Source: a virus | Lineage: Duplodnaviria; Heunggongvirae; Uroviricota; Caudoviricetes | Length of the DNA stretch: 64,000 bases | Direction: 5' to 3' (one strand) | Virus record (IMG/VR): IMGVR_UViG_3300028601_000019 | Coordinates: 4,130-68,129 of that record | In this document: positions 940 through 48,925 of the stretch, piece after piece | How positions within the stretch are numbered: the first letter of the stretch is position 1 | Layout: each line of letters begins with the position of its first letter | The notes under the pieces: model-generated | Seen by the model: only the letters and a program-made list of their open reading frames with translations | What the model was told of the DNA's origin: nothing | Database searches by the model: none | Program-made: the position numbers and the translations under genes

Positions 940-1058
940 GATTATAATTCCTTTTCGTTTTGAATTATAATTATTTATTTAGATTCATTTTCTAATGAAG
1001 AACATTGATGTTTTAATGAATTTTTCATTGATTTCCTCTCAATTATAAATTTGTTTTC

Positions 1059-1066
1059 TATAAATA
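1059..1066 (+). promoter_or_regulatory. T4-type late promoter motif TATAAATA. It sits in an 8-nt insertion that is present in IS copy 1 and absent from copy 2, upstream of tnpB.
   Basis: Exact TATAAATA. Copy 2 reads TTCTATATATAATATT at the same place. Confidence 0.4.
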
Positions 1067-1098
1067 GATATATAATATTAAAACTAGGTTGTAAACAA

Positions 1099-2280
1099 AT
1101 GATTAGATCATCCAAACATATTTTGAAGTATCAGACTGGTTCCAAGACGAAAGTCTTGAACCAGCTTTTTGACGACTTCAGAACTGACTTGTCTTGGTAT
1201 ATAGATCTGATCATTGCTGGGCAATTGCCTCTAACCAAGTTCATGTCATCCAAGGACTTGCCTTCGGGGATCATTACTCATTCTGCTTGGAAACAAATTC
1301 TGTATAAAACAGCATCTGAAATTGTTCGTTCTCAATACAAACAAGCCTCTAATCAAAGATTCAAGCATTACAAGAAATTGTTCCACAAGTGCAGTAGTGC
1401 AAACAAACATTGTTTTTTTACTGACAAACGATTTAGTGAACTGAATCTCAAGCCAATTCATCAATCTAGGTTCTTTAGTAAGCCAGACTTAAAGAACTTT
1501 TCAATCACACTAGATTCTAGATTGATTGACTTTCAATATGGCTTGCATTTCGATGAATTTGTAAGAATTAAAACCCCATTGTTCCATGAGCACAAGAAAC
1601 GTGCCATTACAATCAATATTCCAATCAAACATCACAAACATAGTCGTAAATTCGAGTCATGGGAACGAAAGAACTCAGTTCGATTGACATTAAAGAACGG
1701 AGTCATGAATCTTGAATTGATCTATGAGAAAGATGCACCTAAACTAAAGACAGATGGTTCTGTTCTTGGAATCGATCAGGGCTACAAGAAACTAATGTCA
1801 TGCTCCGATGGAACATTTCTTGGTTCTGAGATGGAATCAATCTACAAGTTCATTTCCAACAAAAAACAAGGCTCTAAGGCTTTCAAGAGAGCATTGATTC
1901 ATAGGACCAATGAAACGAACAGAATTTGTAATTCTCTAGATCTTTCTGATGTCAAAGAACTTGTTGTCGAGGACCTCAAGAACTTGAAACATAAATCAAA
2001 ACTGTCAACAAATTTTATGAACAAGATGCAACGCTGGGTTTATCCAGCAGTACTGGGCAAATTGGAATCCTTGGCTGAAATGAACGGTGTTCATTTCACG
2101 AAGGTGAATCCTGCTTATACTTCGCAGACATGTTCTAATTGCGGATGTGTAGATCCTGAGTCTCGCCAAGGCGAAGACTTCATGTGTCTGCATTGTGGCT
2201 ATGAGATTGATGCAGACTGAAATGCATCAATCAACATTGCCCGTTTGGGAATTTATAGTTCCCAAAGTCCAAAAAGCTAA
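1099..2280 (+). CDS. tnpB: TnpB (IS605 OrfB family RuvC-like RNA-guided nuclease), about 393 aa.
   Basis: RuvC-I motif GIDQG; RuvC-II motif VVEDLKNL; zinc finger CSNCGC...CLHCG; RuvC-III motif DAD-TGA-NASINI. The ORF continues 20 codons past the TGA to a TAA. Confidence 0.85.
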
Positions 2281-2318: not shown

Positions 2319-4310
2319 TTATCAAGTAGATTCTTCAAGATAGTGATCATCATTAATATCTGAAAGAATACCTCATACATCCTCTTCTTCTTTGTTTTTA
2401 AAAAGGTCAACCTCATCCTTAAAAAGTTCTGTATCAATAAGATAGCACATCCAATATAGACCTGAAACAAGGTCATCTCCACCATCTGTACTTGAAGTAA
2501 ACTTTCCATTCTTTTCAATAAAAGTAGAAATTTGTTTTGCTGTTTCCCTATCTTTAATTATTAGAGAACCGTCTTCAATAAGTTTTTTCATTGTGATAAC
2601 AGCTTTGGTTTTAGATGCTGATGTGGCTCTAATTCCGATTTCATTCTCTTTATTTCCAGAATTGTAAAGATTTGGATTTTCAAAAATTCACCAAAGATTT
2701 TGAGTAACAGTAGATCCCTCAGCATTGTTCTCTGCTCCAATAATAGCATCATTATAATAAATTGAAAGCCTGTTAATGATGGAAGAAAGTTCATAGGTAT
2801 CTGTGACATTGGATTGGAAAGTTGCAGCATTAACTAACTTAACTGGTTTGAATGAGTCTATTCTATAGATTTGAATAGTAGCATCATGAGCACCTGATCC
2901 TTTTGATGGATCAACACCAATAAGAAACTTTTCTCCTTGCTTTGGTTTATGATACACTCGTAATCTATCATTTAGATCTGTTTCTTGAGGATCTTCAATT
3001 GTTGTGTTAATAAATTCAATCCCAGCAGTTGAAACTAGAGTATTAGATGACCCGAGGAACTCAACTTCAAATTCCTGTTTGAATTTTGCAAGGTTGCCCA
3101 TATTCTTAATCTGTTTATCTCTTCAGGTCTTTGTTCTTCCAGGAATCATATCCCAAGTAACTTTCATATGTTTGTATTCATTTCTTTTTGCTTCAGCACC
3201 GGAATATATTTCATGAAATAGATTAAACACACCATTTGGGGTTGAAATGATAATAATTTTAGCCTCATCAGAAGATGAAATTGCTGGATATACTGAAGTA
3301 TAAAATTCTCTTGCTATACCGTCGGAGACGAATCCAAGTTCGTCGAGTAGAAGAAGTGCTACTGAACGCCCCCGAAAGGTATCTTCAGTTGTGCCGGCAG
3401 TTTCAATTTTTGACCCATTTTCAAATTCTATTGATTGTTTATTATATTCAACAACACCCGGTTTAAGATAGAAAGGAAGCTCTTCATACATAATTTTAAT
3501 ACGTCTAAGAAGGTCTTTTGCAGAACTTGCCTTATTAGATGCTATTCCAATAAATTTATCAGAGTGAAATATAGCATATCATAAAGCAAAAGCCCCTACT
3601 GTTGTTGAGTTATGACTCTTTACACCATTTGTATAATAACATTCTCCATCAACATCTAAACAATCATACATATTAGATGATGTATCTAATTTTTCAACAT
3701 TAGAAATTTCTATATCACCATTTTCGGTTTCTATAAAATCCCCAATAGTTAGATCCTTAGCATAAATTTCCTTGTCATCAGAAAATAGTATATGATTATC
3801 AGCACACACAAATTCAATGCCATTATTCAATGATACTTTATATTCATTATATTCAACAGTTTTACCAACACCAGAAAAATCTTTTCATCCATCTGGAGTT
3901 CAAATTTCATAATCTTCACAATTTCTTTTCTCTATAAATTTATCATTTATAACAAAAGAAGATGTTGTTAGTTTGTCAAAGAATTCCCCAATGGTTAATT
4001 CTTCTTCTATTCCTGTTTTCTTGTTTCTTATCTTTATTTTTGTATCCCAAGAAACGCACTTGCCCGATTGTCTACAGAATAAAAAAGTTAAGTATCTATG
4101 ATCTTTACACATTTTAATCATCTTTTTCTGGAAAGGATACAACAAATCTCCAAGCTTTTTTCTTCCACCATCAATTGTTACGATTGTAACAAAGTTTAAA
4201 AAATATAAAACATCTTCAGAACACTTTACAAGATCTGAAATCATTTCTGGTGTGTATTCATCTTCCATTCCTGGATTTTTTACAAATTTATCGTCATATC
4301 TAATTGACAT
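2319..4310 (-). CDS. gp17: Terminase large subunit (T4 gp17-like) containing a mini-intein. The precursor is about 663 aa and is read through 6 in-frame TGA codons.
   Basis: Five standard-code ORFs lie in one frame, separated only by TGA. T4 gp17 motifs are present: LFCRQSGK (Walker A), VEYNKQSIEFENGSKI and KIIIISTPNGVFNLFHEIY. The TGA aligns with an aromatic position in gp17. Confidence 0.85.
3609..4058 (-). other. Hint-domain mini-intein of 150 aa inserted in the terminase P-loop. It runs from Cys1 (CVSWDTKI...) to ...VKSHN and is followed by the +1 Ser of the extein (STTVGAFAL).
   Basis: The extein junctions QSGK|C and HN|STTV reconstitute QSGK-STTV, which matches T4 QLGKTTVV. Intein blocks A (CVSWDT), B (ADNH) and F/G (DCLDVDGECYYTNGVKSHN) are present. 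There is no endonuclease domain. Confidence 0.75.
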
Positions 4311-4356
4311 TTTCCTAACCTTATATATATTTTAATCTATTTATGATCAATAATCT

Positions 4357-4364
4357 TATAAATA
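4357..4364 (+). promoter_or_regulatory. T4-type late promoter TATAAATA upstream of the gp24-like gene. A divergent near-match, CATAAATA, lies on the minus strand at about 4333-4343 upstream of the terminase gene.
   Basis: Exact motif about 45 nt upstream of the ATG, followed by a GGAGGAATTTAAAC ribosome-binding site. Confidence 0.55.
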
Positions 4365-10991: not shown

Positions 10992-11008
10992 AACAAAAAA
11001 GAAAAAAT

Positions 11009-11016
11009 ATAAATAG
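11009..11016 (+). promoter_or_regulatory. Late promoter TATAAATA plus the same conserved UTR, upstream of the MCP gene.
   Basis: Exact motif. The downstream 30 nt are identical to the cassette at 9988-10017. Confidence 0.55.
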
Positions 11017-12375: not shown

Positions 12376-12425
12376 GTTTACAAACTTTCAAAACTTTTAT
12401 ATTCTAATCTTAACAAAGCAACAGT
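12376..12425 (+). promoter_or_regulatory. Early-type promoter: GTTTAC (-35), 16 nt, TATATT (-10), followed by the conserved leader TCTAATCTTAACAAAGCAACA. A second GTTTAC lies at 12345.
   Basis: Matches the T4 early-promoter -35 GTTTAC. The same architecture is found at 23873, 24653, 24954 and 27895. Confidence 0.5.
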
Positions 12426-13306: not shown

Positions 13307-14278
13307 CTATATTCATATTCATAGTTTATAATCAAAGCCTGCATTTTTAACACTTTGCTCTTTTAATAAGTTCTTTTGAAGTTCTTTATTATATGTAAAT
13401 GTTGATTTTACTTCAACAATAAGATTATCTTTAGGTATATAGAAATCTGGAAAATATCTATGTTTTTTCATATCAATGCCTATATATCAAAAAGGAGGAA
13501 TTTCTCTCTTTTTATAAACAATTTCATTTTCGTTATATATTTTTAAAAGTTCATCAAAAACTTCCGGTTCATATCCCTGAAGATTGATAATTTTACCAGA
13601 TGGTAGTACATATTCATGTCATGATTTTTTATAGCCGCCCTGTGTTCTTTCAAAAACAATAGAACTTTGTGATGGATGATCTACGCCATAATTATTTTGT
13701 CACGTTTCTTTACAAGCATTTTTATAAATATCTGTTTTTGAAAACCAATCTACACCATATTTCTCTAAACAGGTTTCTCTATTTTTATCAAATCGCTCTT
13801 TTCTTTCAATTGGGGTTTCATTTCTATATCTTTCTTTAATGCTTTCAATATGAGTCTCGGTTTGAGTATAGTGTGGTACACCATATTTCTCTAAACAGGT
13901 TTTTTCGCTTTTATCTAATAATTCTTTAGATTGCATAGATCAAGGAACCCCATATTTTTCAACCATTGAATTATTAAATTTTTTTATAACTTCAGGATTT
14001 TTCATAGAACATTTTTGCGAGCAATGTCTTTTATACCCTTCCCTAAGATTAACATATTTAACTTTTTTCTGGTTACATATACAGCACAACATAATGTCAA
14101 AATTATCATTGATAATATGTCAACATCTTTGTGATAATGATGCGGTTTCAGGAAGAAATGATGTGAGTTCAAAAATTTGTATTTTTCTGTCAGGAAATCT
14201 AAAAAGTTTTCTGGGACTTATTTTTCCTAGAGAATCTAGCAAATTCTCTTTAATTCATATTTTTAGTTGATCGTTCAT
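13307..14278 (-). CDS. Homing-endonuclease-like protein of 323 aa, with about 6 in-frame TGA. It has an N-terminal zinc ribbon (CCICN...HCSQKC), tandem KYGV-containing repeats and a C-terminal PD-(D/E)xK nuclease motif (YFPDFYIP...IVEVKS).
   Basis: Translated by hand through TGA. The frame length is divisible by 3. Repeats are VEKYGVPW, CLEKYGVPH, CLEKYGVDW and NNYGVDHPSQS. Confidence 0.5.
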
Positions 14279-14410
14279 GATGTTCTACTCCTTTAGAATT
14301 TGAAAATGTTAATAGAGGTTAGAAATTGAAGGAGCAATTTCAACAATGGCCGTTGCTGTCCCTCTATTAAATTTAAAGATAAGATATTTTATTTACATTG
14401 TAAACAAAAA

Positions 14411-16342
14411 TTAAACTGCTCCAATTAATTCGTCAAAATCTGCGCCTGTTTTTGTAGCAATGAAGTTAAGTCTCAAGAATTCGGCACTTCTAGCTGGTTG
14501 CAGTCATATGTTGCCGTGCAATTCGTTGCGATCAATACGTTCTGGAGTATTAGTTGTCTCGTCAATTTGTACTTTGAATGCATAAATACCTCTGCGACCC
14601 TGTACATCGCGTAAGAAGGGCTCGATCATAGATCTTAATAAAAATCACGTAACTTCATCCGACATCTCGAAAAGAAAATATTTTGCACTTTTAGCAATAG
14701 ATTTTTCTAATACGAGGAATAATCTACGAACGTTAATTCTATTAAAAGCACTTTGTTTATCAAGCAATGTCTTTTGGCCTCATACTACTTTACCCTGACC
14801 ACTAAAAGAAACAATAGGATTAATACCAGCAACATATAATGCATCTCTATTTCCTTCAGTAGGATTAAAAGCAAGTCTACGTACACCAGTAATAACTGCT
14901 CTATTTAAACCTGCAGGGGCCCACCAAGCATCAGCTACATCATCAGTATGAGCATATAACCCAGCCATGTGTCCAGAAGCAGGTATCCAACGATATTTCT
15001 TATTCCAAGTATCAAATACTTCAAGCCAGTTTCCATAGATAGCAGCATAAGAAGTATTGGGATTAAAAGTAGAACCTGCCTGGCCCTTTCTTCATTTTAC
15101 CATATCTAAAGTTTCGGAACCTTTATTATTTAGAACATGACTTCTAAGAACATCAAGAATAGCAAAAGAATCACTTCTAATAACTTGACAAAGTTCAATT
15201 AAATGATCTTTTACTGTGACACCCTTATCAGATTCGATAAAGAGATTAACATCAATTTCTTCAGCATTGGCATATAAATTATATGCATCAATACATGCTG
15301 CATCTTCACCAGCTTGAACAGAAACGTCAGCATGTCTTCCAAAAAGACCATTTTTGCCACCAGAAAGCGCTGTTATTCTGGTCATAATTACAGCAATATT
15401 TTCTGCTTCGACTTCAGATGTTGTTTTAAATATTGGGTTTAAAGCAACATTAATATACTTAGATTGTTCATTGATTACGGTTTCTACAAAGTTAGAGACA
15501 CCAGAATCGTCAATTGAAGTTTCATCAGAAGAAACAATAAAGACTTCTTTATCTTCCCACATTGTAGAGCCTTGATCTTTAGCTTGAACCATTACAACAA
15601 ACTGTTTTTCGTCTGTCATCGGAGTATCAAGATCACGAATTACTGCAAAAGGAAGATTATCTTGGTAACCCACAGTTCCAAAATCTGGATTTGCTTCATA
15701 GTCGTTCCACATTGTTGTTACAGCTGCAGTAGCCGCAAGAGTTAATGTTACTCCAGAAGGAATATCAAAGGTTTCTGTCTGAGTGTCAAAATATTTAACA
15801 GCATCATAGGTTGCTTTATTATAAACAAGAACTCTAGAATTGTTGCCGAATTCGCCACGATATTTTGCCATAATCCAAAGCGGATCATCTTCACCCATTA
15901 GAGTATCTACCATTTCAGGGAACATTTTAAGATCAGTTGTTCCTAAAGAAACATAACTATATGGGTCATCATCTTCTGTGCCCGCAACAGTTCCTGTAAC
16001 TTCAAAAGTAAAATTAACCATTGCTTCTTGAACTGAATTTGTTCCAGTAAGAATTTTTGTGCCAGCAAAAGTGGCATCCTGCGGCATTACTCTTGTACAA
16101 TAAAGAGCATTACCATATTTTAGATATCCAACAGAAGTTAAAATATCAGTAAAAGATGCATCAGTTGGCTTACCAAAAGTGCTAATTAGTTCATCTGTAT
16201 TTGTTACTAAATACTGTTCGTATTCAGGCCCTTTGTATGTTTTTCGCAAAACGTTAACTGCAATAGATGTTGCTACTGCTGGAATCGTAGTGCTTAGATC
16301 GACTTCCCGGGGATATACACCTGGGGATAGGGAAAAGCTCAC
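14411..16342 (-). CDS. gp18: Tail sheath protein (T4 gp18-like), 643 aa, GTG start, TGA codons in the C-terminal third.
   Basis: The N-terminus MSFSLSPGVYPREVDLS is a sheath signature. The C-terminus ...RNELHGNIWLQPARSAEFLRLNFIATKTGADFDELIGAV resembles the gp18 C-terminus. Confidence 0.8.
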
Positions 16343-16393
16343 GTTTAAATTCCTCCATAAATTAAAATCTAAGAATCATTAGATTGTTATATC

Positions 16394-21933: not shown

Positions 21934-22002
21934 ACAAACCATTGTTTACAATTTAGTTCCCCTGTTTTAAATTTAACCAAATTTGAAATGGGGGAACTTT
22001 TT

Positions 22003-22500
22003 ATGAACACACAACTACTGGAGCCCGAAAAAACAAAAATAAATTACTATGTAAAAAATAAAGATCTTCTTATTGAGATTGAAAAGCTTCAGGAAACTAA
22101 TGTTTTTTCTGATACATTGGGAAGATATATTATTAGAATTGTTAATGGCCTTTCACATAGACCAAACTTTAGTGGATATACATACATTGAAGATATGAAA
22201 TCTGAAGCACATGTAGCCATTATTAAAGGGCTTAGAAATTTTAATCTTGAAAAATCTAGTAATCCATTTGCATATATTACTCAAATAGCATGAAATGCTT
22301 TTATAGCATTCATAGGAAGAGAAAAGAAAAAATCCAAAACAAAGAAAAGATTATTTGATTTAAAAGATCTTATTCAAGAAGAAGATTCTATGTGTGCAAT
22401 TAACTATTCATATTATTGTGAAATAGAAGTATTTGAAAATGTTGACGAAGTTCCAGATGTTAAAATGGAAGATTTAGAAATTTGTGAGGAAAATGAATAA
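22003..22500 (+). CDS. gp55: Late-transcription sigma factor (T4 gp55-like), about 165 aa, with 1 in-frame TGA.
   Basis: RPNFSGYT matches T4 RFNFSGYT. NPFAYITQIA-TGA-NAFIAFIGREKK matches [21 protein letters not shown]. It lies adjacent to a gp47 homolog, as in T4. Confidence 0.8.
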
Positions 22501-23534: not shown

Positions 23535-23860
23535 TTGTTTACCCAATCAATAATACCCATTAATCTATACCCTCCGTACTAAGTTATATTATAACTAACC
23601 TATCCGGATATCATTGTAAACAAACAAACTAGGAAAATTTTCGGCAATTTGATATCATGTCCGGAAAACTCAAGATTCTTGATGATTCTAGGAAACCTAA
23701 TTATATCAATAACTTAGAAATCCTCCAAATTCTTAGTTTTCCTAATCAAATTAAGTACTTAGAAGAAATCCTCAAAAAACTAGTGAAAATCGTGTATAAT
23801 TATATTGATTTTTTGCAGGATTCAGGAATCCTAATTATTGTAATAATTTAGGATTCTGAA
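23535..23860 (+). repeat. Copy 1 of a 330-bp dispersed repeat. It contains the palindromes AGTTATATTATAACT, AGGATTCAGGAATCCT and AATTATTGTAATAATT, and a small ORF (23657..23851).
   Basis: About 85-90% identical to 48598..48925. The first palindrome differs between copies but is perfect in both, a compensatory change. Confidence 0.7.
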
Positions 23861-23872
23861 AAAAGTAGTGTA

Positions 23873-23923
23873 CATTCTTTCAAAATCTGGTTATTCTGAA
23901 AACATCTTAACAAACAAAACCAA
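23873..23923 (+). promoter_or_regulatory. Early-type promoter AAAAAGTAGTGTACATT ... GGTTATTCTGAAAACATCTTAACAAAC.
   Basis: The 17-mer is shared with 27885. The leader resembles the others. Confidence 0.4.
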
Positions 23924-24304
23924 ATGGAGATTAAGATGTTTGCTATTATTAATGAAAAGAACGAAAGGTTGTCTAATGGTTACACACTTAAATTTGTAGA
24001 TGCTTCTAAACGCTGTTGTCTATGGAAGAATGAGACTCCTGCTAGGAATCTTTTGAATAAACTTACTGATGATGGTGTGGTTGGATTACGAGTTGAAGAT
24101 ATTGGGGATGAACTTCCTAAGGTTGAAAAGAAAGAACGAAAGCTAAAAGAAGAAACTCAATCTCAAGAAGAAGTTGAATTTGATGAAACTTCATTTTTTG
24201 AGCAAGGAATTAATGAAAAATGTTTGAGATGTGAGGGCGACTGTAAACAGTCAGCTCTTGTAAAAATTATTCGTTGCCCTAGTTTCAAAAAGATTAAAAA
24301 ATAA
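23924..24304 (+). CDS. Hypothetical protein of 126 aa with a C-terminal CxxC..C region.
   Basis: ORF with a ribosome-binding site. Confidence 0.5.
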   Translation: MEIKMFAIINEKNERLSNGYTLKFVDASKRCCLWKNETPARNLLNKLTDDGVVGLRVEDIGDELPKVEKKERKLKEETQSQEEVEFDETSFFEQGINEKCLRCEGDCKQSALVKIIRCPSFKKIKK

Positions 24305-24369
24305 TGTATGTACATTCTCTCAATAGTTTGATACTTCTATTTTTAACACAATCATTTAAGGAGATTTTA

Positions 24370-24645
24370 ATGAATTCATTATTTGAAAGAATAGAGCCCA
24401 TGGATGGAGAAGAAATTGCCAAAGAACTTGGAACAACCCGCCAGTATATTTGTAACACACTCAAATCTGCCCTCCGCAAAGTATACAAATCTCTTAAACA
24501 GAAAAATCCTGACATGACCCCCTTTGAAATTGTAAATGCTATTAGAGAATTTTTTGGAATTGAAGACACAGATGAAGTCCGCATATTTTTTCAATCTTTT
24601 CCCCCAGATGTTAGAGAAGAAGTAGAATCTTCAATGAAAATGTAA
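24370..24645 (+). CDS. Standalone sigma-70 region-4-like helix-turn-helix protein, 91 aa.
   Basis: MDGEEIAKELGTTRQYICNTLKSALRKV matches the sigma70_r4 pattern (L..eIA..lG.t...V.q....Al.kL). AAGGAG ribosome-binding site. Confidence 0.5.
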   Translation: MNSLFERIEPMDGEEIAKELGTTRQYICNTLKSALRKVYKSLKQKNPDMTPFEIVNAIREFFGIEDTDEVRIFFQSFPPDVREEVESSMKM

Positions 24646-24652
24646 TTTTTTA

Positions 24653-24700
24653 TTTACAAACATTAAAAAGTTTTATATTCTGATCTTAACAAAACAACAT
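24653..24700 (+). promoter_or_regulatory. Early-type promoter TTTACA (-35) ... TATATT (-10) plus the leader CTGATCTTAACAAAACAACA.
   Basis: Nearly identical to 24954-24995 and 12376-12425. Confidence 0.5.
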
Positions 24701-24717
24701 TAACAAAGGAAACGATC

Positions 24718-24948
24718 ATGGAAATCAAGAAGGGCGACATCATTAGAAGTTATGACTTTCATTTCAATACTGATTGTTATAATGTTGGCATCGTAACAGA
24801 TGTTGATGATAAATGGATTTATTTCACCTCTGGTAAGAAGGTTTGGATGGGAGAAGAGATTGAAGATTTCGATCCTTATATGAGAACCGCCCCAATTGGA
24901 TTCATGATGCTTGACGAAGAATTTGAAAGAATTTTAATTTTAGCTTAA
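24718..24948 (+). CDS. Hypothetical early protein, 76 aa.
   Basis: ORF after an early promoter. Confidence 0.5.
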   Translation: MEIKKGDIIRSYDFHFNTDCYNVGIVTDVDDKWIYFTSGKKVWMGEEIEDFDPYMRTAPIGFMMLDEEFERILILA

Positions 24949-25024
24949 TTTTTGTTTACAAACATTAAAAAGTTTTATATTTCTCTAATTAATATAAACA
25001 ACTTAATCAAATGGAGATTATCTC

Positions 25025-27331: not shown

Positions 27332-27405
27332 GGCCCAGTAACTCAACTGGATAGAGTACGAACCTCCTAAGTTCGAAGTTGCAAGATCGTACCTTGCCGG
27401 GGTCA
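27332..27405 (+). tRNA. tRNA-Arg (anticodon CCU), 74 nt, with one A-G mismatch in the acceptor stem.
   Basis: Hand-folded cloverleaf: acceptor GGCCCAG, D-arm ACTC/GAGT, anticodon arm CGAAC-CTCCTAA-GTTCG, T-arm GCAAG-ATCGTAC-CTTGC. Confidence 0.6.
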
Positions 27406-27411
27406 CAAAAT

Positions 27412-27484
27412 GCTCCTGTAGTTCAATTAGCAGAATCCCCGGCTCATAACCGGACAGTTGTAGGTGCAAATCCTGCCGGGAGCA
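27412..27484 (+). tRNA. tRNA with a CAU anticodon (elongator Met, or Ile if modified to lysidine), 73 nt.
   Basis: Hand-folded cloverleaf: acceptor GCTCCTG/CGGGAGC, anticodon loop CTCATAA, T-arm GTAGG-TGCAAAT-CCTGC. The 1:72 pair is G-C, so it is not an initiator. Confidence 0.65.
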
Positions 27485-27508
27485 CAAACTTTTAAAAGGA
27501 GATTTGAA

Positions 27509-27895: not shown

Positions 27896-27945
27896 TGTAC
27901 ATTTGTTTTGACTTTTGTTATTCTGATCTTAACAAAACAACAATT
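27885..27945 (+). promoter_or_regulatory. Early-type promoter AAAAAGTAGTGTACATT..TTTGAC..GTTATTCTGATCTTAACAAAACAACAA.
   Basis: Shared 17-mer and conserved leader. Confidence 0.45.
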
Positions 27946-28018: not shown

Positions 28019-28483
28019 GTGAAGATTAGACATTGTTTCGTCTCAAATTCAAGTAGTTCAAGTTTTATCATTGGGTTAGCCAAGACAGATGACAACTCAG
28101 GAACAAAATTTGATTCTTCAAATTTGGTTTGGTCGGAATGGAACGAAAGTTATTTTCTGGAAGTAGAGGGTGGAAGATATTCCGGTGAAATTTATGTTCG
28201 TAAAAATGATGATGGGAGTTATAAACTTGAAATTGAATCTTTTATGGGATCATCAGTAACTTGTAATATTAAAGATGGAGAATACTTCCTTCATGTTGAT
28301 GGTGCTGGTCCAGGAGAGGATTCTTTCTTTTCTGTATATGATGATGATGGAAACTGGGTTGACATTGATTATGATATGATTGAACTTGACGATTTTGATA
28401 AAAAAGATGTTGAAAAGTTTTATAAGATTCGTGATCTTGGTGGGGATGCTACCTATGGAACAAAAGTTATTTTCTGGGAGTAG
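28019..28483 (+). CDS. Hypothetical protein of 154 aa with the N-terminus MKIRHCFVSNSSSSSFI. It is terminated by the junction of a tandem duplication.
   Basis: GTG start. Shares the MKIR.(C/F)FVSNSSSSSFI N-terminus with the 28794 gene. Confidence 0.45.
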   Translation: MKIRHCFVSNSSSSSFIIGLAKTDDNSGTKFDSSNLVWSEWNESYFLEVEGGRYSGEIYVRKNDDGSYKLEIESFMGSSVTCNIKDGEYFLHVDGAGPGEDSFFSVYDDDGNWVDIDYDMIELDDFDKKDVEKFYKIRDLGGDATYGTKVIFWE

Positions 28484-28780
28484 AGGGTGGAAGATATTCC
28501 GGTGAAATTTATGTTCGTAAAAATGATGATGGGAGTTATAAACTTGAAATTGAATCTTTTATGGGATCATCAGTAACTTGTAATATTAAAGATGGAGAAT
28601 ACTTCCTTCATGTTGATGGTGCTGGTCCAGGAGAGGATTCTTTCTTTTCTGTATATGATGATGATGGAAACTGGGTTGACATTGATTATGATATGATTGA
28701 ACTTGACGATTTTGATAAAAAAGATGTTGAAAAGTTTTATAAGATTCGTGATCTTGGTGGGGATGCTACCTATGGAGCAG
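28140..28780 (+). repeat. Tandem direct duplication of about 318 bp x 2. The second copy is out of frame.
   Basis: 28157-28470 is repeated at 28473-28790. The junction reads TTATTTTCTGG(G/A)AGTAGAGGGTGG. Confidence 0.8.
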
Positions 28781-32591: not shown

Positions 32592-33926
32592 GATTCATTT
32601 TCTAATGAAGAATATTGATGTTTTAATGAATTTTTCATTAATTTCCTCCTGAAATTATAAAATTAGTCAAAAACAAAATTTGTTTTCTATATATAATATT
32701 AAAATTAGGATTTCCAATGATTAGATCATCCAAGCACATTTTGAAGTATCAGACTGGTTCAAAGACGAGAGTCTTGAACCAGCTGTTTGACGACTTCAGA
32801 ACAGATTTGTCTTGGTACATAGATCTAATCATTTCGGGGCAATTGCCACTGACCAAGTTCATGTCATCCAAGGACTTGCCTTCAGGGATCATTACTCACT
32901 CCCAATGGAAACAAATTCTATACAAGACAGCATCTGAAATTGTTCGTTCTCAATACAAACAAGCCTCAAATCGACGATTCAAGCATTACAAGAAATTGTT
33001 CCATAGGTGCATTAGTGCAAATAAGCATTGTTCTTTCACTGATAAGAGATTTAGTGAACTGAACCTCAAACCAATTCATCAATCTAGGTTCTTTAGTAAA
33101 CCAGATCTAAAGAATTTCTCAATAACACTAGATTTAAGATTGATTGATTTTCAATATGGACTTCATTTCGATGAATTTGTTAGAATCAAGACTCCATTGT
33201 TTCATGAACACAAGAAACGAGCTATTACAATCAATGTCCCAATCAAGCATCACAAGCATAGTCGTAAGTTTGAGTCTTGGAAACGCAAGAACTCAGTTAG
33301 ATTGACACTAAAGAACAATGTCATGAATCTTGAATTGATCTATGAGAAAGAAGCTCCAAAACTAAAGACCAATGGTTCTGTTCTTGGAATTGATCAAGGC
33401 TATAAGAAATTATTGTCTTGTTCCGATGGAACATTTCTTGGTTCCGAAATGGAATCAATCTACAAATTCATTTCAAACAAAAAGCAAGGTTCCAAATCCT
33501 TCAAGAGAGCATTGATTCATAGGACCAATGAAACGAATCGAATTTGTAATTCTCTAAATCTTTCTAATGTCAAAGAGCTTGTTGTCGAGGACCTCAAGAA
33601 CCTAAAACATAAAACTAAACTAAGTACTAATTTTATGAACAAGATGCAACGCTGGGTTTACCCAGCAGTACTGGGCAAATTGGAATCCTTGGCTGAAATG
33701 AACGATGTTCATTTCACGAAGGTGAATCCTGCTTATACTTCGCAGACATGTTCACAATGCGGATGTGTAGATCCTGGGTCTCGCCAAGGCGAAGGCTTCA
33801 GGTGTTTGCACTGTGGACATGAGATTGATGCAGATTGAAATGCATCAATCAATATTGCCCGTTTGGGAATTTATAGTTCCCAAAGTCCAAAAAGCTAATT
33901 TCATTGTTCTTCATTGAAATTAGTAA
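32588..33926 (+). mobile_element. IS605/IS1341-family TnpB-only element, copy 2.
   Basis: More than 90% identical to 978..2312 across the left end, tnpB and the right end. Confidence 0.75.
32717..33898 (+). CDS. tnpB: TnpB, copy 2, about 393 aa. The terminal TGA is read as Trp.
   Basis: Same motifs as copy 1: CSQCGC...CLHCGHEIDAD-TGA-NASINIARLG. Confidence 0.85.
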
Positions 33927-39870: not shown

Positions 39871-42800
39871 TTATCCTTTACATTCATCTAATAGCATTAG
39901 AAATTGTGAATATAAACCTTCGGGGTCATCTGTCATAAATGCATCAGTAAATGGTACTCGAATAACACCATCTAAATCTCTTTCTGTATGAAAGACCACC
40001 CCAATTCCAAACTGATTAGAATCTACATACATTTTTTTAGATTTTTTAATAATCTTAGATTCAAAGTCTTGCCAAGGCATCATTTCCTTATGAGTTGGTA
40101 CTAATCCTTGATGAAAAACAAATGTAATAACATTTTTTGATTTAATCATTTCTTGCTCCTGTAGAAAATCTGCAAATGATTTAAAATACTTATTTTCTTT
40201 AATAGCATGGGGATACTGCTTTTTAAGTTTATTCACATATGATTTTGTTGTGAACTTTACTTTGTGTGCTTTAACAATATTAATCTGCGCTTGTGGTCAG
40301 CAAAGTGCTCATTCAGGAGATCTAATAGAATCGGTTCCAGTTCCTGCAACATGATAATGAAGACCTTTTGCTCCAAGATTTACCTCACATTCATATATAG
40401 TCCCAATAGTTCCTTCTTTACGACTAAATCCTTCATCACCAAGATATTGAGCAACTTTCTCAATAACATTAGAAACATAAATACCGCCAACAGTACTAAT
40501 AGTTGCTCTGTGATATAAATCTGAAGGATAGTTTACTATAGCTCTAGTATTTGCTGCACCAGAATCTATAGGAAAATATCCATTTTCCAAATATTCTACA
40601 TAATCATTAGTCTTTTCTATAGCATCACCATCTGCCTTTGCTTTTACTAATGTCATATTGTGGATGTCTAGCATTCTACCAACAGTTGAAGAGTCGTTGG
40701 CCGGAATAACAGTAAATCCAAATCTTAAAATAAAGTTAGAAGCAGTTAATCCCGAAGCATGAAATGCTGGTATGAGATTATCATTTCCAAATCTGGTTTT
40801 AAACTCTTCAAACTGAGGATACTTCATATTAACATTAAATGATTCAAGAAATTCAACTGCTGATGAACCATGCATTCCATTATAATATTTTGAATATTCA
40901 ACTGTCTTCTCATTGAGTTGATCTTGACTTTCTTCAATTTTATCGATTTTAATATCTGGAATTAATGCATCACTCTTTAAAACATCACTTACTCTCTCAA
41001 AATAAGAGGCCCAGGATTCTCGAGGTTTCTTTCTTAACATTGCACCTTTAAATTCAAAGTTATTATAGGTTAATAAGGTTTTAATTCTATTTGGTGTCAA
41101 TTGTGTAAATGGTTTTAGTGGGTTATTCGAAACATAAATATCATTTAAAAGAGGATAAATTAGTAGTTGCTCTTTAAGAGTATTTACTAAGCTATTTTTA
41201 ATTTTATCTGGAAATGCATCTAATAACTTATCAAGATTTTGTATTTTATCTTTGCTAGAAAGCATATCTAACATGATAAATTCAAGACTATTGGTTTTGT
41301 TAAGAAGTCTTTTACCTGATGAAATCTTATCCCAAATTCCACTTACATCCGGATCTGAAAAATATTCTACAAGAGCATCAACTCCATGATCATCATAAAG
41401 CTTTCCAATATAGAATGAGTTCTTATCAAGATACTGAGAGATAACATCTGTTGCTTCTTTAGATGTATAATAATTTGGGTCTCCAAGTCTTATTAAAAGA
41501 AATGAATTCATATAGGATCTTGTAAGAAAATCTTTAAGAGTATCTTTATCAGAAATAAAGTCCAAAAGAAATGAATCTTTTAACTTTTCGGAATCATAAG
41601 AACCAAAATCATCTAATACACTAAAAAGTCGAGCTTTATTATTTTTAGTAGATGTTTGAAAAAGTTCTTTTGCTTCATCCTTAGTTATTATACTTAGGTT
41701 TGCCATATAATTAAGATCTAAAACTATGCTTTTAATTTTACCGCCAGCCAAAAGCTTGTTTTTTAAATGAGTTAAAATTTTATCTTTAAATGCAAGTAAT
41801 GTTGGCTTATTAAGTTTATATGATATAGCCACAGAAAAATAATTATACTCAGTGTCTGAATTCAATTGATCAATTCTTTCATCAATAGCCTTAAAAACTT
41901 TTGCATTTTTGGAAAGATCATAATCTGTATCACGAAATAATTCAATAAATGACCTAAAATTAGAGTGACCAAGATTCTCACTATCTAAATTAACAAATAA
42001 CTCTGTATTATTAAGAATAAAATCAAGAGAAACATTAAAACTTCTAATTAAACTAAAAGGAATATATTCACCAATCAATTTAATTATAAGTTTTATTAAA
42101 TAATAATATTCTGTAGAACCAACAGGCACATTTTTAAATAATGTGTTTACAACTGTTTCATCACTTAATGAATAAACACTCAATGAATTTTGTTGTGTGT
42201 TAGAAGAAATATGATTTAAAAGCTTATTAAAATCATCTCATTTGCCTTTTGTAGCAAAATAAGTTAAACATCTAAATGCCAAAAATTGTTCATACTTTGA
42301 AGCGCCATAATATGGAAATCATTTAAAATTTGAAGGTGTATCGAATACTAAATCTTCAATTAGATATGAGTTATCTAATCTATATTCTCCATATAGATAA
42401 AAAGCTAAAATAATATATTTTGACATATATCTATGATCACTTTTAACTTCATTTAAAAAATCATCATATTTAAGTCCATACTTTTCCATAAATTGTTTAA
42501 TATCTAACCCAGTATCTTGTAAATAAGATTTGTAAAAATTATCTCATTTTGATTCTCCGTCAATAATGTCGGAATTTAACATAGCAAATGTTAGGCCAGA
42601 AGCAACTTTATCTGCAAATGTTAATCGTGAATCTGCTCATTTATATGCATCACATGATTTATTTGTTAACGTTATAAATCTTTTAGCAAGATCTTTTGCT
42701 GGAGTATTATCCTTTCCAATAAATGCAATTAAATCTTCTTCTGGAAGATATTCAATTTGAGCATTTTTAATATAAGAAAAAATAGGAAACTTAGTATCAC

Positions 42801-44085
42801 TATAAATGAAAAATAAAAACTTATCAGTATCAAGACTATGAGAAGCTATAATAGATTTCAGTATTTCAGTACTATCATTCTTAAAATCTCTATCAAAAAC
42901 AAATCTTATATTACTTAATGTTTTATCTAAAAAGTCTTGTGGAACACCAGCTCTAGCTAAACTTCCTATAGTATCTCCAATGAAAGTTTCAATATCATTA
43001 ACAAAAAGATACATAGAATACAAATCACTCATACTATCCATTTTAGAATATAAAAATAATCTACCAAAAGATCGTCTATAATCATCAGCCAAAATAAAAT
43101 CTTTAAAGAAGGTGGGTACTTTAGAAATATCACCAAGAATAGGTGTAAATAAGGTTTCTATATTTGGAAATTCTTGTTTAATAGTGGCAGGTATTGGGTG
43201 AAAAAAGAAAGCTGCAAGATCTTCATATGAAAATGTATACGCAATATGACTTGCAGGAATTCCAAATTTAGCGCAACTTTGAATTACTTCCTTAATAGAA
43301 GAATTATTGCCGTACATATACATTAATATAGCATATTTTGCATGATAAGATGCTCTATCAGAACCAATAAAAGCAACAATGTCATTCCATGTTACCTGTT
43401 TTGTAACTGTAGGAGAAGCAGTAATAACAGAAGTTTTGACAGGGATTGGATCGGGTTTTGGTGCTCCAGTTAATGCAGACTTAACAGGAGACACTGTCTG
43501 AGTTTGTGTGTTAGGATCTATTACATTAGTTGTTGGTGAGCTCTGGGTGCCATCAGTAACACCAGCAAGCCTCTTATACATAACTCTAAATTCATGAGCT
43601 CTTTTATTTTGTAGGGCCAAATTATAAAGCTCTGGAAGCATATCAGCAAGTGTCTTATTACCCTTTACGAAATCCTTAATTAATGCTGAAATTTGTGGGT
43701 ATGGATATACAGAACTAACTTTGATTTTTTTAATAATTTCAGTTCTAACAAGATTCTCATCAAGACCGCCTAATGTTCCGGTTTTAATCTTGGCAAGCAT
43801 TTTGGTAATCTTTGTCATTGTCATATCAGGAATAACCTTCTTGTCATCAATGATCTTAAGAATTACCATTAAATCTGTGTCAGAATCAGTTATCTTTTCA
43901 AGTCTAACTGATGATTGTTTAAAATATTGAATAAGTTTGATATCATCTTTATATTTTGCATAAAGGCCCAAAAATCCTAGAAAATTGATTCAGAATTCAT
44001 TAGTAATTTTCTTTTCCTTAGTAAGAAATTTATCTTTTCCTTCTTGATCTTTTCATATATGGTTCTCAATTAAAAGTTCTCTCAT
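39871..44085 (-). CDS. Very large protein of 1404 aa, read through about 8 in-frame TGA. Its C-terminal third carries an ADP-ribosyltransferase-like R/STS/ExE pattern (FILRFGF ... ATISTVGG ... IYECEV). A candidate Alt-like injected effector.
   Basis: Three standard-code ORFs (39871-40236, 40309-42183, 42637-43971) share one frame. Hand translation of the gaps shows only TGA between them. ATG at 44085 with a GAAGGAGA ribosome-binding site. Confidence 0.5.
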
Positions 44086-48597: not shown

Positions 48598-48925
48598 TTA
48601 CCCAATCAATATTACATATTAATCTATGCCCTCCGTACTAAGTTAATATATTAACTAACCTATTTCTCCAGGGTTGTAAACAAAGAAAATTCAAAAACAT
48701 TCAAAATTCTCACCTTCTAAATTAATAAGTCCAGAAAACTCAAGATTCTTGATGATTTTAGGAAGCCTAATTATATCAATAACTTAGAAATCCTCCAAAT
48801 TCTTAGTTTTCCTAATAAATCTAAATACTTAGAAGAAATTATCCGGAAAATCATAGAAATGGTGTATAATTATATTGATTTTTTGCAGGATTCAGGAATC
48901 CTAATTATTGTAATAATTTAGGAAT
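48598..48925 (+). repeat. Copy 2 of the 330-bp dispersed repeat (see 23535). It lies between divergent gene clusters.
   Basis: Same palindromes, with compensatory substitutions (AGTTAATATATTAACT). Confidence 0.7.

What the first reader, a model, noticed from the sequence alone, without database searches (positions are those of the whole stretch)
24370..24645. Free-standing sigma-70 region-4-like helix-turn-helix protein expressed from an early promoter region
The 91-aa protein matches the region 4.2 helix-turn-helix pattern (EIAKELGTTRQYICNTLKSALRKV). A decoy or appropriator of the host -35 recognition surface would be a functional analog of T4 AsiA/MotA logic.
Basis: inference. Interest (0 to 1): 0.55.

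Follow-up and report, generated by a model that had tools for sequence, protein, structure and literature searches.

The report
Sigma-4/gp33-like RNA polymerase cofactor
A real, conserved 91-residue protein of an uncultured T4-like phage joins a sigma-factor "region 4.2" DNA-reading motif to a domain resembling T4 gp33 (the protein that replaces sigma region 4 on host RNA polymerase), so it is probably this lineage's gp33 counterpart and may link gp33 to sigma factors.

Summary
The ORF is real: 24370-24645 (+), 91 aa, with a Shine-Dalgarno site and dN/dS of about 0.08 against its ortholog. It belongs to an undescribed family of about 190 clusters at 50% identity. The family appears only in metagenomes, and every informative context is T4-like.

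Residues 14-38 align in register with E. coli sigma-70 residues 574-598. Of 84 family members, 80 hit Pfam Sigma70_r4, though this protein is sub-threshold. Only region 4.2 is present.

[quoted passage not shown] The C-terminal three helices align weakly but reproducibly with gp33 H3-H5 (hhalign P 0.005), and the conserved positions of the two families coincide.

The phage encodes gp55 2 kb upstream and uses TATAAATA late promoters with no -35 element. No canonical gp33 was found in the window.

Best reading (about 0.5): a gp33 counterpart that acts as a sigma-4 surrogate on the beta-flap and works with gp55. It is not an AsiA/MotA analogue.

Main rival (about 0.3): an ordinary HTH DNA-binding regulator.

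Weak points:
- no sliding-clamp-binding tail
- no HMMER-level match to gp33
- only 64 of about 165 kb scanned

In passing: the phage reads TGA as Trp.

The parts
24370..24645 (+). Gene for the 91-aa five-helix protein (stop codon included)
   Evidence: ORF list and sequence. Homologs. dN/dS 0.08. AF2 models with pLDDT 86.7 and 92.2 and helices at 13-20, 24-45, 51-62, 67-75 and 79-90.
24358..24363 (+). Shine-Dalgarno AAGGAG, 6 nt before the ATG
   Evidence: Read directly from the sequence.
24309..24337 (+). Promoter-like site TGTACA-N17-TACTTC; a degenerate copy of the repeated early-type promoter and leader motif
   Evidence: Regex scan and alignment by eye with the copies at 12377, 23869, 24653 and 27896. 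A conserved TTTACATTGTCGAAA... lies at the same place in L001 and L007. A consensus match only; function not shown.
24406..24504 (+). Residues 13-45: sigma-70 region 4.2-type helix-turn-helix with a long basic recognition helix (R24, Q25, K32 and K37 are 88-96% conserved)
   Evidence: Pfam and PHROG hits. BLASTP to E. coli sigma-70 residues 574-598. PDB profile hits to Tfx, YlxM, DeoR-N, RpoH and SigA. Conservation and charge.
24508..24642 (+). Residues 47-91: acidic three-helix module (PFE...FFxxFP..IRxEI..DA) resembling helices H3-H5 of gp33
21988..22500 (+). gp55-like late sigma factor (sigma region 2 type), read through an in-frame TGA (Trp) at 22291-22293; the presumed partner
   Evidence: phrog_234, E 1e-23. 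39% identity to T4 gp55 across the TGA, E 5e-21. The C-terminus ...DLEICEENE compares with T4 ...LDFLYEAND.
23924..24304 (+). Conserved upstream neighbour (126 aa, unknown function), probably co-transcribed; its TAA overlaps an ATG at 24304
   Evidence: Synteny in L001, L002, L003, L007 and L008. No family hit.
23869..23897 (+). Early-type promoter motif TGTACA-N17-TATTCT upstream of the 126-aa gene
24653..24681 (+). Early-type promoter motif TTTACA-N17-TATTCT immediately downstream, serving the next gene; an identical 27-mer recurs at 24955-24981
11008..11015 (+). Example of a T4-type late promoter TATAAATA, upstream of the gp23-like capsid gene. Others lie at 4357, 9979, 16394(-), 17743, 48545(-), 48968 and 58824. 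None has a conserved -35 element.

Best explanation
The gene encodes a compact five-helix protein of an undescribed family found so far only in uncultured T4-like (Pantevenvirales) phages.

Helices 1-2 form a sigma-70 region 4.2-type helix-turn-helix. [quoted passage not shown]

I think the protein is this lineage's counterpart of gp33. In this model it is made early or in the middle period from a sigma-70-type promoter. It binds the beta-flap tip and keeps host sigma region 4 off it. The sigma-2-like factor gp55, encoded 2 kb upstream, provides recognition of the TATAAATA late promoters. Its basic recognition helix would lie against upstream DNA. That contact is probably not sequence-specific, because the late promoters show no -35 element.

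Shown: the gene is real and under purifying selection; the family exists in T4-like contexts; the HTH is sigma 4.2-like; the fold and C-terminal sequence resemble gp33; gp55 and T4-type late promoters are present.

Inferred: flap binding, exclusion of sigma region 4, DNA contact, time of expression, and partnership with gp55.

For: 2. Sequence. hhalign of the family against T4-type, cyanophage-type and merged gp33 profiles always gives the same register: family residues 47-91 against gp33 residues 51-93. P improves from 0.04-0.11 to 0.0047 as the gp33 profile becomes more diverse. None of 150 column shuffles reaches the real score, and the reversed profile scores 14 against 22. The most conserved positions coincide: family E53, P78 and D88-A89 with T4 gp33 E57, P78 and E88-A89.

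3. Rank test. An HMM of the C-terminal module, run against about 3,700 decoy ORFs plus 24 gp33 sequences, ranks two gp33 proteins first among non-family hits.

4. Context. gp55 lies 2 kb upstream in a conserved order, gp55-gp47-x-126aa-this gene. TATAAATA sites precede the structural genes and have no -35 conservation. Other family members sit next to nrdA, primase, gp32, RNase H and the gp44/62 clamp loader.

5. No canonical gp33. Neither T4-type nor cyanophage-type gp33 was found in the 64-kb window or in the flanks of related loci. Cultured relatives such as HTVC008M carry canonical gp33. tBLASTn with this protein and one other family member found no match in any isolate phage record.

6. 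Literature. The T4 review already calls gp33 a sigma-4 mimic and gp55 + gp33 a split sigma (PMC2988020).
Against: - HMMER finds no match to the gp33 families PF16805 or phrog_254.
- hhalign probability is only 7.5%, and true gp33 subfamilies match each other at E 2e-9.
- Foldseek against the PDB did not retrieve 3TBI.
- The family has no hydrophobic C-terminal sliding-clamp-binding motif. Its tails are short and basic. In T4 that motif is essential for activation (PMC7892883).
- T4-type gp33 is strongly acidic, whereas the HTH half here is basic. The best-conserved polar residues (R24, Q25, K32, K37) lie on the recognition helix, as in ordinary DNA-binding regulators.
- One phage carries two tandem paralogs.
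- gp33 and sigma-4 are published as structurally unrelated.
- Only 64 kb of a contig of about 165 kb could be scanned for a canonical gp33.
Confidence: 0.5

Rival explanations
1. An ordinary stand-alone DNA-binding transcription regulator. The sigma-4/Tfx/DeoR-type HTH would bind a specific operator in the phage or host genome, for example to shut off early promoters or switch on a middle class. The C-terminal helices would serve only for folding or dimerisation. The similarity to gp33 would be convergence of small helical bundles.
For: The best PDB sequence hits are DNA-binding HTH proteins: Tfx 9e-5, YlxM 2.6e-4, and the N-terminal HTH of DeoR/SorC. The recognition helix is basic, and R24, Q25, K32 and K37 are 88-96% conserved. 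One phage carries tandem paralogs. There is no clamp-binding tail. A source annotates a homolog as 'predicted transcriptional regulator'. A repeated promoter and leader motif could serve as an operator set.
Against: The C-terminal module is as conserved as the HTH (F73, F77, P78, P51) and always accompanies it. The top fold hit among 48,164 chains is gp33 itself, the factor expected in a gp55-encoding phage but not found in this window. The sequence register against gp33 is reproducible. No conserved inverted-repeat operator was identified.
Confidence: 0.3
2. A sigma appropriator or decoy in the AsiA/MotA sense. The protein would bind host sigma-70 region 4, or would compete with it for -35 DNA. 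Either way it would remodel the host holoenzyme for a middle promoter class.
For: The sigma 4.2-like recognition helix keeps the equivalents of sigma-70 T583, R584, I587, A594, L595, R596 and K597. The probable early expression fits.
Against: There is no similarity to AsiA or MotA in Pfam, PHROGs, the PDB or fold searches. No third promoter class with a MotA-box-like element was seen: only the TKTACA-N17-TATTCT and TATAAATA classes. The residues at the base-reading positions R586, R588 and Q589 differ (Y, C, N), so competition for the host -35 element is doubtful.
Confidence: 0.08
3. The sigma-4 half of a sequence-reading split sigma. The protein would bind the flap like gp33 but would also read a specific upstream element at a subset of gp55-dependent, or other, promoters. 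In that case it would be a true promoter-specificity subunit.
For: As for the best explanation, plus the strong conservation of the sigma 4.2 positions that read the -35 element (R24 = R584, Q25 = E585).
Against: Eleven TATAAATA sites in the window share nothing obvious around -35. T4-type late promoters need no upstream element (PMC2988020).
Confidence: 0.1

Closest known systems
T4 gp33, late-transcription co-activator (Pfam PF16805 Trans_coact; PDB 3TBI)
   Different: There is no HMMER-level match to the gp33 families. Helices 1-2 carry a clear sigma 4.2 signature and a long basic recognition helix, where T4 gp33 is acidic and does not bind DNA alone. The family has no C-terminal clamp-binding motif (T4 ...TLDFLL; cyanophage ...AKLPL).
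Region 4.2 of sigma-70 family factors (Pfam PF04545 Sigma70_r4)
   Same: The HTH aligns in register with E. coli sigma-70 residues 574-598 (10/25 identical, including T-R and A-L-R-K). 80 of 84 family members hit the Pfam model.
   Different: Only region 4.2 is present (profile positions 20-49 of 50). There are no region 4.1 helices and no regions 2 or 3. Three unrelated helices follow the HTH instead. This protein scores below Pfam's cutoff.
T4 AsiA/MotA sigma appropriation
   Same: It is a small phage protein, probably made early, that may act at the sigma region 4 / beta-flap interface of host RNA polymerase.
   Different: There is no sequence or fold similarity. No MotA-box-type promoter class was seen. 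The phage shows the gp55 late system, for which gp33 is the relevant partner, not AsiA/MotA.
Small sigma-4-like HTH DNA-binding proteins (archaeal Tfx, YlxM/p13, N-terminal HTH of DeoR/SorC)
   Same: These are the best sequence hits in the PDB for the HTH, at E 1e-4 to 2e-3.
   Different: The matches cover only about 30 residues of the HTH. None has the C-terminal PFE...FFxxFP..IRxEI..DA module.
Phage late activators with sigma-like HTH (RinA/ArpU type; PMC3152322)
   Same: They are small phage proteins with a sigma region 4-like HTH that control late genes.
   Different: RinA-type proteins bind a specific site upstream of terS in temperate siphoviruses of Gram-positive bacteria. No similarity beyond the generic HTH was seen here, and the context is a T4-like lytic phage with gp55.

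Membership tests
T4 gp33 / Trans_coact (PF16805, phrog_254) | Significant sequence match to the family model | tested here: not met
   T4 gp33 hits PF16805 at 5e-27 and phrog_254 at 2e-32. The window protein lists neither in Pfam (E<=1) or PHROGs (E<=0.1). Neither is among the families hit by the 84 members. Local gp33 HMMs give E>6.
T4 gp33 / Trans_coact (PF16805, phrog_254) | Five-helix fold of gp33 as seen on the beta-flap (3TBI) | tested here: met
T4 gp33 / Trans_coact (PF16805, phrog_254) | Remote homology by profile-profile comparison | tested here: inconclusive
   hhalign gives P 0.0047 and probability 7.5% over 47 columns. The register is the same with three gp33 profiles, and 0/150 column shuffles reach the score. 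The positive control, T4-type against cyanophage-type gp33, gives E 2e-9.
T4 gp33 / Trans_coact (PF16805, phrog_254) | C-terminal hydrophobic sliding-clamp-binding motif | tested here: not met
   The protein ends ...EVESSMKM. Family tails are variable and mostly basic. T4-type gp33 ends LDFLL and cyanophage-type ends AKLPL. The T4 review notes that some accepted gp33 homologs also lack an obvious motif.
T4 gp33 / Trans_coact (PF16805, phrog_254) | Encoded in a phage with gp55 and T4-type late promoters | tested here: met
   gp55 at 21988-22500. TATAAATA sites lie upstream of structural genes.
T4 gp33 / Trans_coact (PF16805, phrog_254) | Binds the RNA polymerase beta-flap tip helix | not testable with these tools
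   This needs a complex prediction or an experiment.
Sigma-70 family, region 4 (PF04545) | Region 4.2 HTH signature | tested here: met
   80/84 members hit PF04545, best E 3e-8. This protein scores E 0.0019 and 18.1 bits, below the 24.1-bit cutoff. BLASTP to sigma-70 residues 574-598 gives E 0.001.
Sigma-70 family, region 4 (PF04545) | Region 4.1 helices preceding the HTH (the complete sigma-4 domain) | tested here: not met
   The match covers only profile positions 20-49 of 50. Only 12 poorly conserved residues precede the HTH.
Sigma-70 family, region 4 (PF04545) | Part of a polypeptide that also has sigma region 2 | tested here: not met
   Nearly all family members are free-standing proteins of 80-130 aa. 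Region 2 is on the separate gp55.
AsiA / MotA (T4 middle-mode sigma appropriation) | Sequence or fold similarity to AsiA or MotA | tested here: not met
   Neither is listed in the Pfam, PHROGs, PDB or BFVD searches.
LuxR/GerE-type HTH | GerE model is the best-matching HTH class | tested here: not met
   GerE is hit by 5/84 members, against 80/84 for Sigma70_r4. GerE scores only E 0.24 in the PDB profile search.

The most novel reading that the evidence does not exclude
This family may be an evolutionary intermediate between sigma region 4 and gp33. It keeps a recognisable sigma 4.2 helix-turn-helix in the position of gp33 helices H1-H2 and shares gp33's flap-clamping helices H3-H5. If so, the gp55/gp33 late system of T4-like phages descends from a sigma factor that was literally split in two. 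In this lineage the sigma-4 half would still contact DNA, so late transcription would not need the sliding-clamp tether.
Probability: 0.3. Interest if true: 0.75.

Novelty: new variant of a known kind. Interest (0 to 1): 0.55.

Why it matters
gp33 has been called a sigma-4 mimic with no discernible sequence or structural relation to sigma. Whether the gp55/gp33 pair arose from a split sigma is an open evolutionary question.

This family carries a sigma 4.2 signature on a gp33-like fold, which makes that question testable. It also points to a version of T4-type late transcription in which the co-activator touches DNA itself instead of being tethered to the replication clamp.

The family is large (about 190 clusters at 50% identity). 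tBLASTn with two members found no match among 50,697 isolate phage records, and Pfam and PHROGs match only its HTH. It would therefore fill an annotation gap for a conserved gene of uncultured T4-like phages.

Tried and rejected
- Megablast of 10 kb around the gene against isolate phages found no match.
- tBLASTn of this protein and of family member P0014 against 50,697 phage records found no match.
- The PDB sequence search with the 6-sequence profile gave only noise, such as ribosomal S6. With the 84-sequence profile it gave HTH-only hits.
- The Pfam 'Latarcin' and 'PNMA' hits are low-complexity or compositional noise on the acidic C-terminus and were rejected.
- The generic promoter and terminator scan did not exceed shuffles. 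Promoter inference rests instead on the repeated motif.
- Foldseek against the PDB gave nothing below E 0.9.
- T4 DsbA, the small late-transcription DNA-binding protein encoded next to gene 33, shows no similarity (E 0.17).
- The search for related loci with the broad alignment failed because no stretch was conserved enough. The narrow alignment gave only two loci.
- Word-based searches with gp33 reached only phages of Proteobacteria. Cyanophage-type gp33 sequences had to be collected from annotated genomes.
- The rest of the contig of about 165 kb could not be obtained to prove absence of a canonical gp33.
- Rfam found only the two tRNAs.

Full report
**1. The observation.**
It has an ATG start, 91 codons and a TAA stop, and AAGGAG lies at 24358-24363. 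The quoted motif is residues 15-38.

The gene is real. Six close homologs share 66-100% identity, all about 91 aa. The gene order is conserved in related metagenomic contigs. dN/dS is 0.08 at dS 1.3 against the L001 ortholog. An exhaustive HMMER search of 1.84 billion cluster representatives found 188 relatives at E<=0.001. Nearly all are free-standing proteins of 80-130 aa matched over the whole length (alignment A2).

**2. The replicon.**
The window has 31% G+C and comes from a deeply branching T4-like phage.
- It encodes a gp55-like late sigma factor, gp47/gp46, UvsX, a gp23-like capsid protein, portal, sheath, large terminase and baseplate proteins.
- The capsid protein is only about 36-38% identical to its closest isolate relatives: Phage C48C1, Pelagibacter phage HTVC008M and cyanophages.
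- There is no nucleotide match to isolates.
- TGA encodes Trp. gp55 homology to T4 runs straight across an in-frame TGA. The sheath, terminase and a 1405-aa protein are contiguous only when TGA is read as Trp, for example GKVV[TGA]GQKT.

The finding's ORF contains no TGA, so its reading is unaffected.

**3. The N-terminal half.**
- Pfam gives Sigma70_r4 at E 0.0019 and 18.1 bits, below the 24.1-bit cutoff, on profile positions 20-49 of 50.
- PHROGs gives a sigma-factor family at 2e-4.
- Across the family, 80/84 members hit Sigma70_r4 (best 3e-8) and 47/84 hit Sigma70_r4_2, but only 5/84 hit GerE. PHROG hits are sigma factors or HTH proteins and cover only the HTH.
- Residues 14-38 align with E. 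coli sigma-70 residues 574-598 at 10/25 identities. This places R24 and Q25 at R584 and E585, and A34-L-R-K37 at A594-K597.
- The family profile hits DNA-binding HTH proteins (Tfx, YlxM, DeoR/SorC N-terminal domains) and sigma factors in the PDB. These matches again cover only about 30 residues.

The HTH is therefore of the sigma 4.2 class. Region 4.1 is absent, and the protein is not a sigma factor.

**4. The whole fold.**
AlphaFold2 gives a confident five-helix domain. pLDDT is 86.7 with 6 sequences and 92.2 with 84, and the helices are at 13-20, 24-45, 51-62, 67-75 and 79-90.

gp33 also has five helices and clamps the flap tip helix where sigma region 4 binds (PMC7892883).

**5. Sequence tests of the gp33 link.**
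HMMER sees no relation to gp33.

Profile-profile comparison gives a weak but reproducible alignment of family residues 47-91 with gp33 residues 51-93 (H3-H5).
- P is 0.04-0.08 against T4-type profiles and 0.11 against a cyanophage-type profile.
- P is 0.0047 against the merged, more diverse profile.
- None of 150 column shuffles reaches the real score. The reversed profile scores 14 against 22.
- The best-conserved columns coincide: family E53, P78 and D88-A89 with gp33 E57, P78 and E88-A89.
- An HMM of the C-terminal module, run against about 3,700 decoy ORFs plus 24 gp33 sequences, places two gp33 proteins first among non-family hits, always in the same register.
- A low-confidence extension aligns the family's TRQ with the conserved D-[KR]-Q of gp33 H1-H2.

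I take this as moderate support for homology. It falls well short of the E 2e-9 seen between accepted gp33 subfamilies.

**6. Context.**
gp55 lies 2 kb upstream, and the order gp55-gp47-x-126aa-this gene-DUF932 is conserved. Distant members of the family sit beside nrdA and primase (L006, L025), near gp32 and RNase H (L009), and near the gp44/62 clamp loader (L027). These are T4-like replication and early-middle modules, which is also where gene 33 lies in T4 and cyanophages.

TATAAATA sites precede the structural genes, and nothing is conserved around -35. A second, sigma-70-like class consists of T[GT]TACA-N17-TATTCT plus a conserved leader. It precedes small genes at 12377, 23869, 24653 and 27896, and a degenerate copy lies at 24309-24337 in front of this gene.

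No canonical gp33 is detectable in the window or in related flanks. HTVC008M has a canonical gp33. No family member was found in the 97 kb of its 147-kb genome that I scanned.

**7. Mechanism.**
The most economical reading is that the protein is the gp33 counterpart of this lineage. It would be a sigma-4 surrogate on the beta-flap that works with gp55 at promoters lacking a -35 element.

It differs from T4 gp33 in three ways.
- It has a recognisable sigma 4.2 HTH.
- That half is basic (mean net charge +3.5), and R24, Q25, K32 and K37 are 88-96% conserved. T4-type gp33 is acidic (net charge -3 to -10).
- It has no clamp-binding tail.

It may therefore contact upstream DNA directly and replace part of the role of the clamp tether. 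In T4, gp33 K75 touches upstream DNA only within the clamp complex. The phage's gp55 keeps a C-terminus (DLEICEENE) reminiscent of T4's LDFLYEAND. The T4 review notes that some accepted gp33 homologs also lack an obvious clamp motif.

**8. Rivals.**
The same data fit an ordinary DNA-binding regulator about half as well. In its favour are the basic conserved recognition helix, tandem paralogs in L009, the absence of a clamp motif, and the statistical weakness of the gp33 sequence link. An AsiA/MotA-type appropriator has no support beyond the HTH. A sequence-reading sigma-4 subunit is possible but lacks a visible target motif.

**9. Verdict.**
The right comparison is gp33 rather than AsiA/MotA.

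I rate it a new variant of a known kind. If flap binding is confirmed, it has some evolutionary interest as a possible link between sigma region 4 and gp33. Interest is 0.55, and confidence in the gp33-counterpart model is about 0.5.

Noticed in passing
whole window; e.g. 22291-22293, 14411-16378(-), 2319-4331(-), 39871-44085(-): TGA is read as Trp (genetic code 4). gp55, the tail sheath (5 in-frame TGA), the large terminase (7) and a 1405-aa protein (8) are contiguous, and homologous across the TGAs, only under this code. TGG is used too. Some genes have no TGA at all: the capsid gene, gp47, DUF932 and the 91-aa gene. No suppressor tRNA is in the window. Phage stop-codon recoding is described in bioRxiv 10.1101/2021.08.26.457843, but I know of no T4-like example.
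   Followed up: partly
21988-22500 (+): The late sigma factor gp55 itself needs read-through of one TGA to be made full length. If the host uses the standard code, recoding would gate late transcription.
   Followed up: no
2319-4331 (-): The large terminase appears to carry a mini-intein right after the Walker A lysine (...CRQSGK | CVSWDT ... VKSHN | STTVGAF...).
   Followed up: no
1051-2280 (+) and 32717-33898 (+): Two copies of a TnpB/Cas12f-like (IS200/605 OrfB) gene are 94% identical at protein level. Under the standard code both are cut short at an in-frame TGA. Relatives carry one too (L001, L024).
   Followed up: partly
12377-12425, 23869-23920, 24653-24705, 27896-27945 (+24955-24981): A repeated promoter-like motif, T[GT]TACA-N17-TATTCT, is followed by a conserved leader (G/A)ATCTTAACAAA(A/G)CAAC. 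It is likely the phage's early or middle promoter class.
   Followed up: partly
24646-24981: The 76-aa gene at 24718-24948 is bracketed by two identical 27-nt promoter-like repeats. It is absent at this position in L001, L002 and L003 and present in L008. It looks like a small inserted gene cassette.
   Followed up: partly
23797-23850 and 48867-48920: A 54-nt stretch is identical at both sites. It contains TGTATAAT (an extended -10-like sequence) and the palindrome GGATTCAGGAATCC. One copy lies upstream of the 126-aa gene's promoter and the other upstream of a late promoter.
   Followed up: no
28149-28451 and 28466-28768: A tandem duplication of 303 nt at 99.7% identity spans the end of one small gene and the next.
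   Followed up: no
L008:9749-10270; L009:10001-10668: In L008 the HTH gene is open upstream. It is fused in frame to a duplicated N-terminal part of the 126-aa neighbour, giving a 173-aa ORF. In L009 two paralogs of the family (102 and 114 aa) lie in tandem.
   Followed up: partly
13307-14284 (-): A homing-endonuclease-like gene (phrog_3339, E 5e-15) with eight in-frame TGAs sits between the capsid and sheath regions.
   Followed up: no
27332-27485 (+): tRNA-Arg(CCT) and tRNA-Met(CAT) lie side by side. They are the only Rfam or ARAGORN hits in the window.
   Followed up: yes
4357, 9979, 11008, 16394(-), 17743, 48545(-), 48968, 58824: T4-type late promoters TATAAATA(G)(T/A)TT(A/T)ATA lie 30-45 nt upstream of ribosome-binding sites of structural genes. 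The total count of TATAAATA is not above shuffles (16 against 11.9), but the placement is telling.
   Followed up: partly
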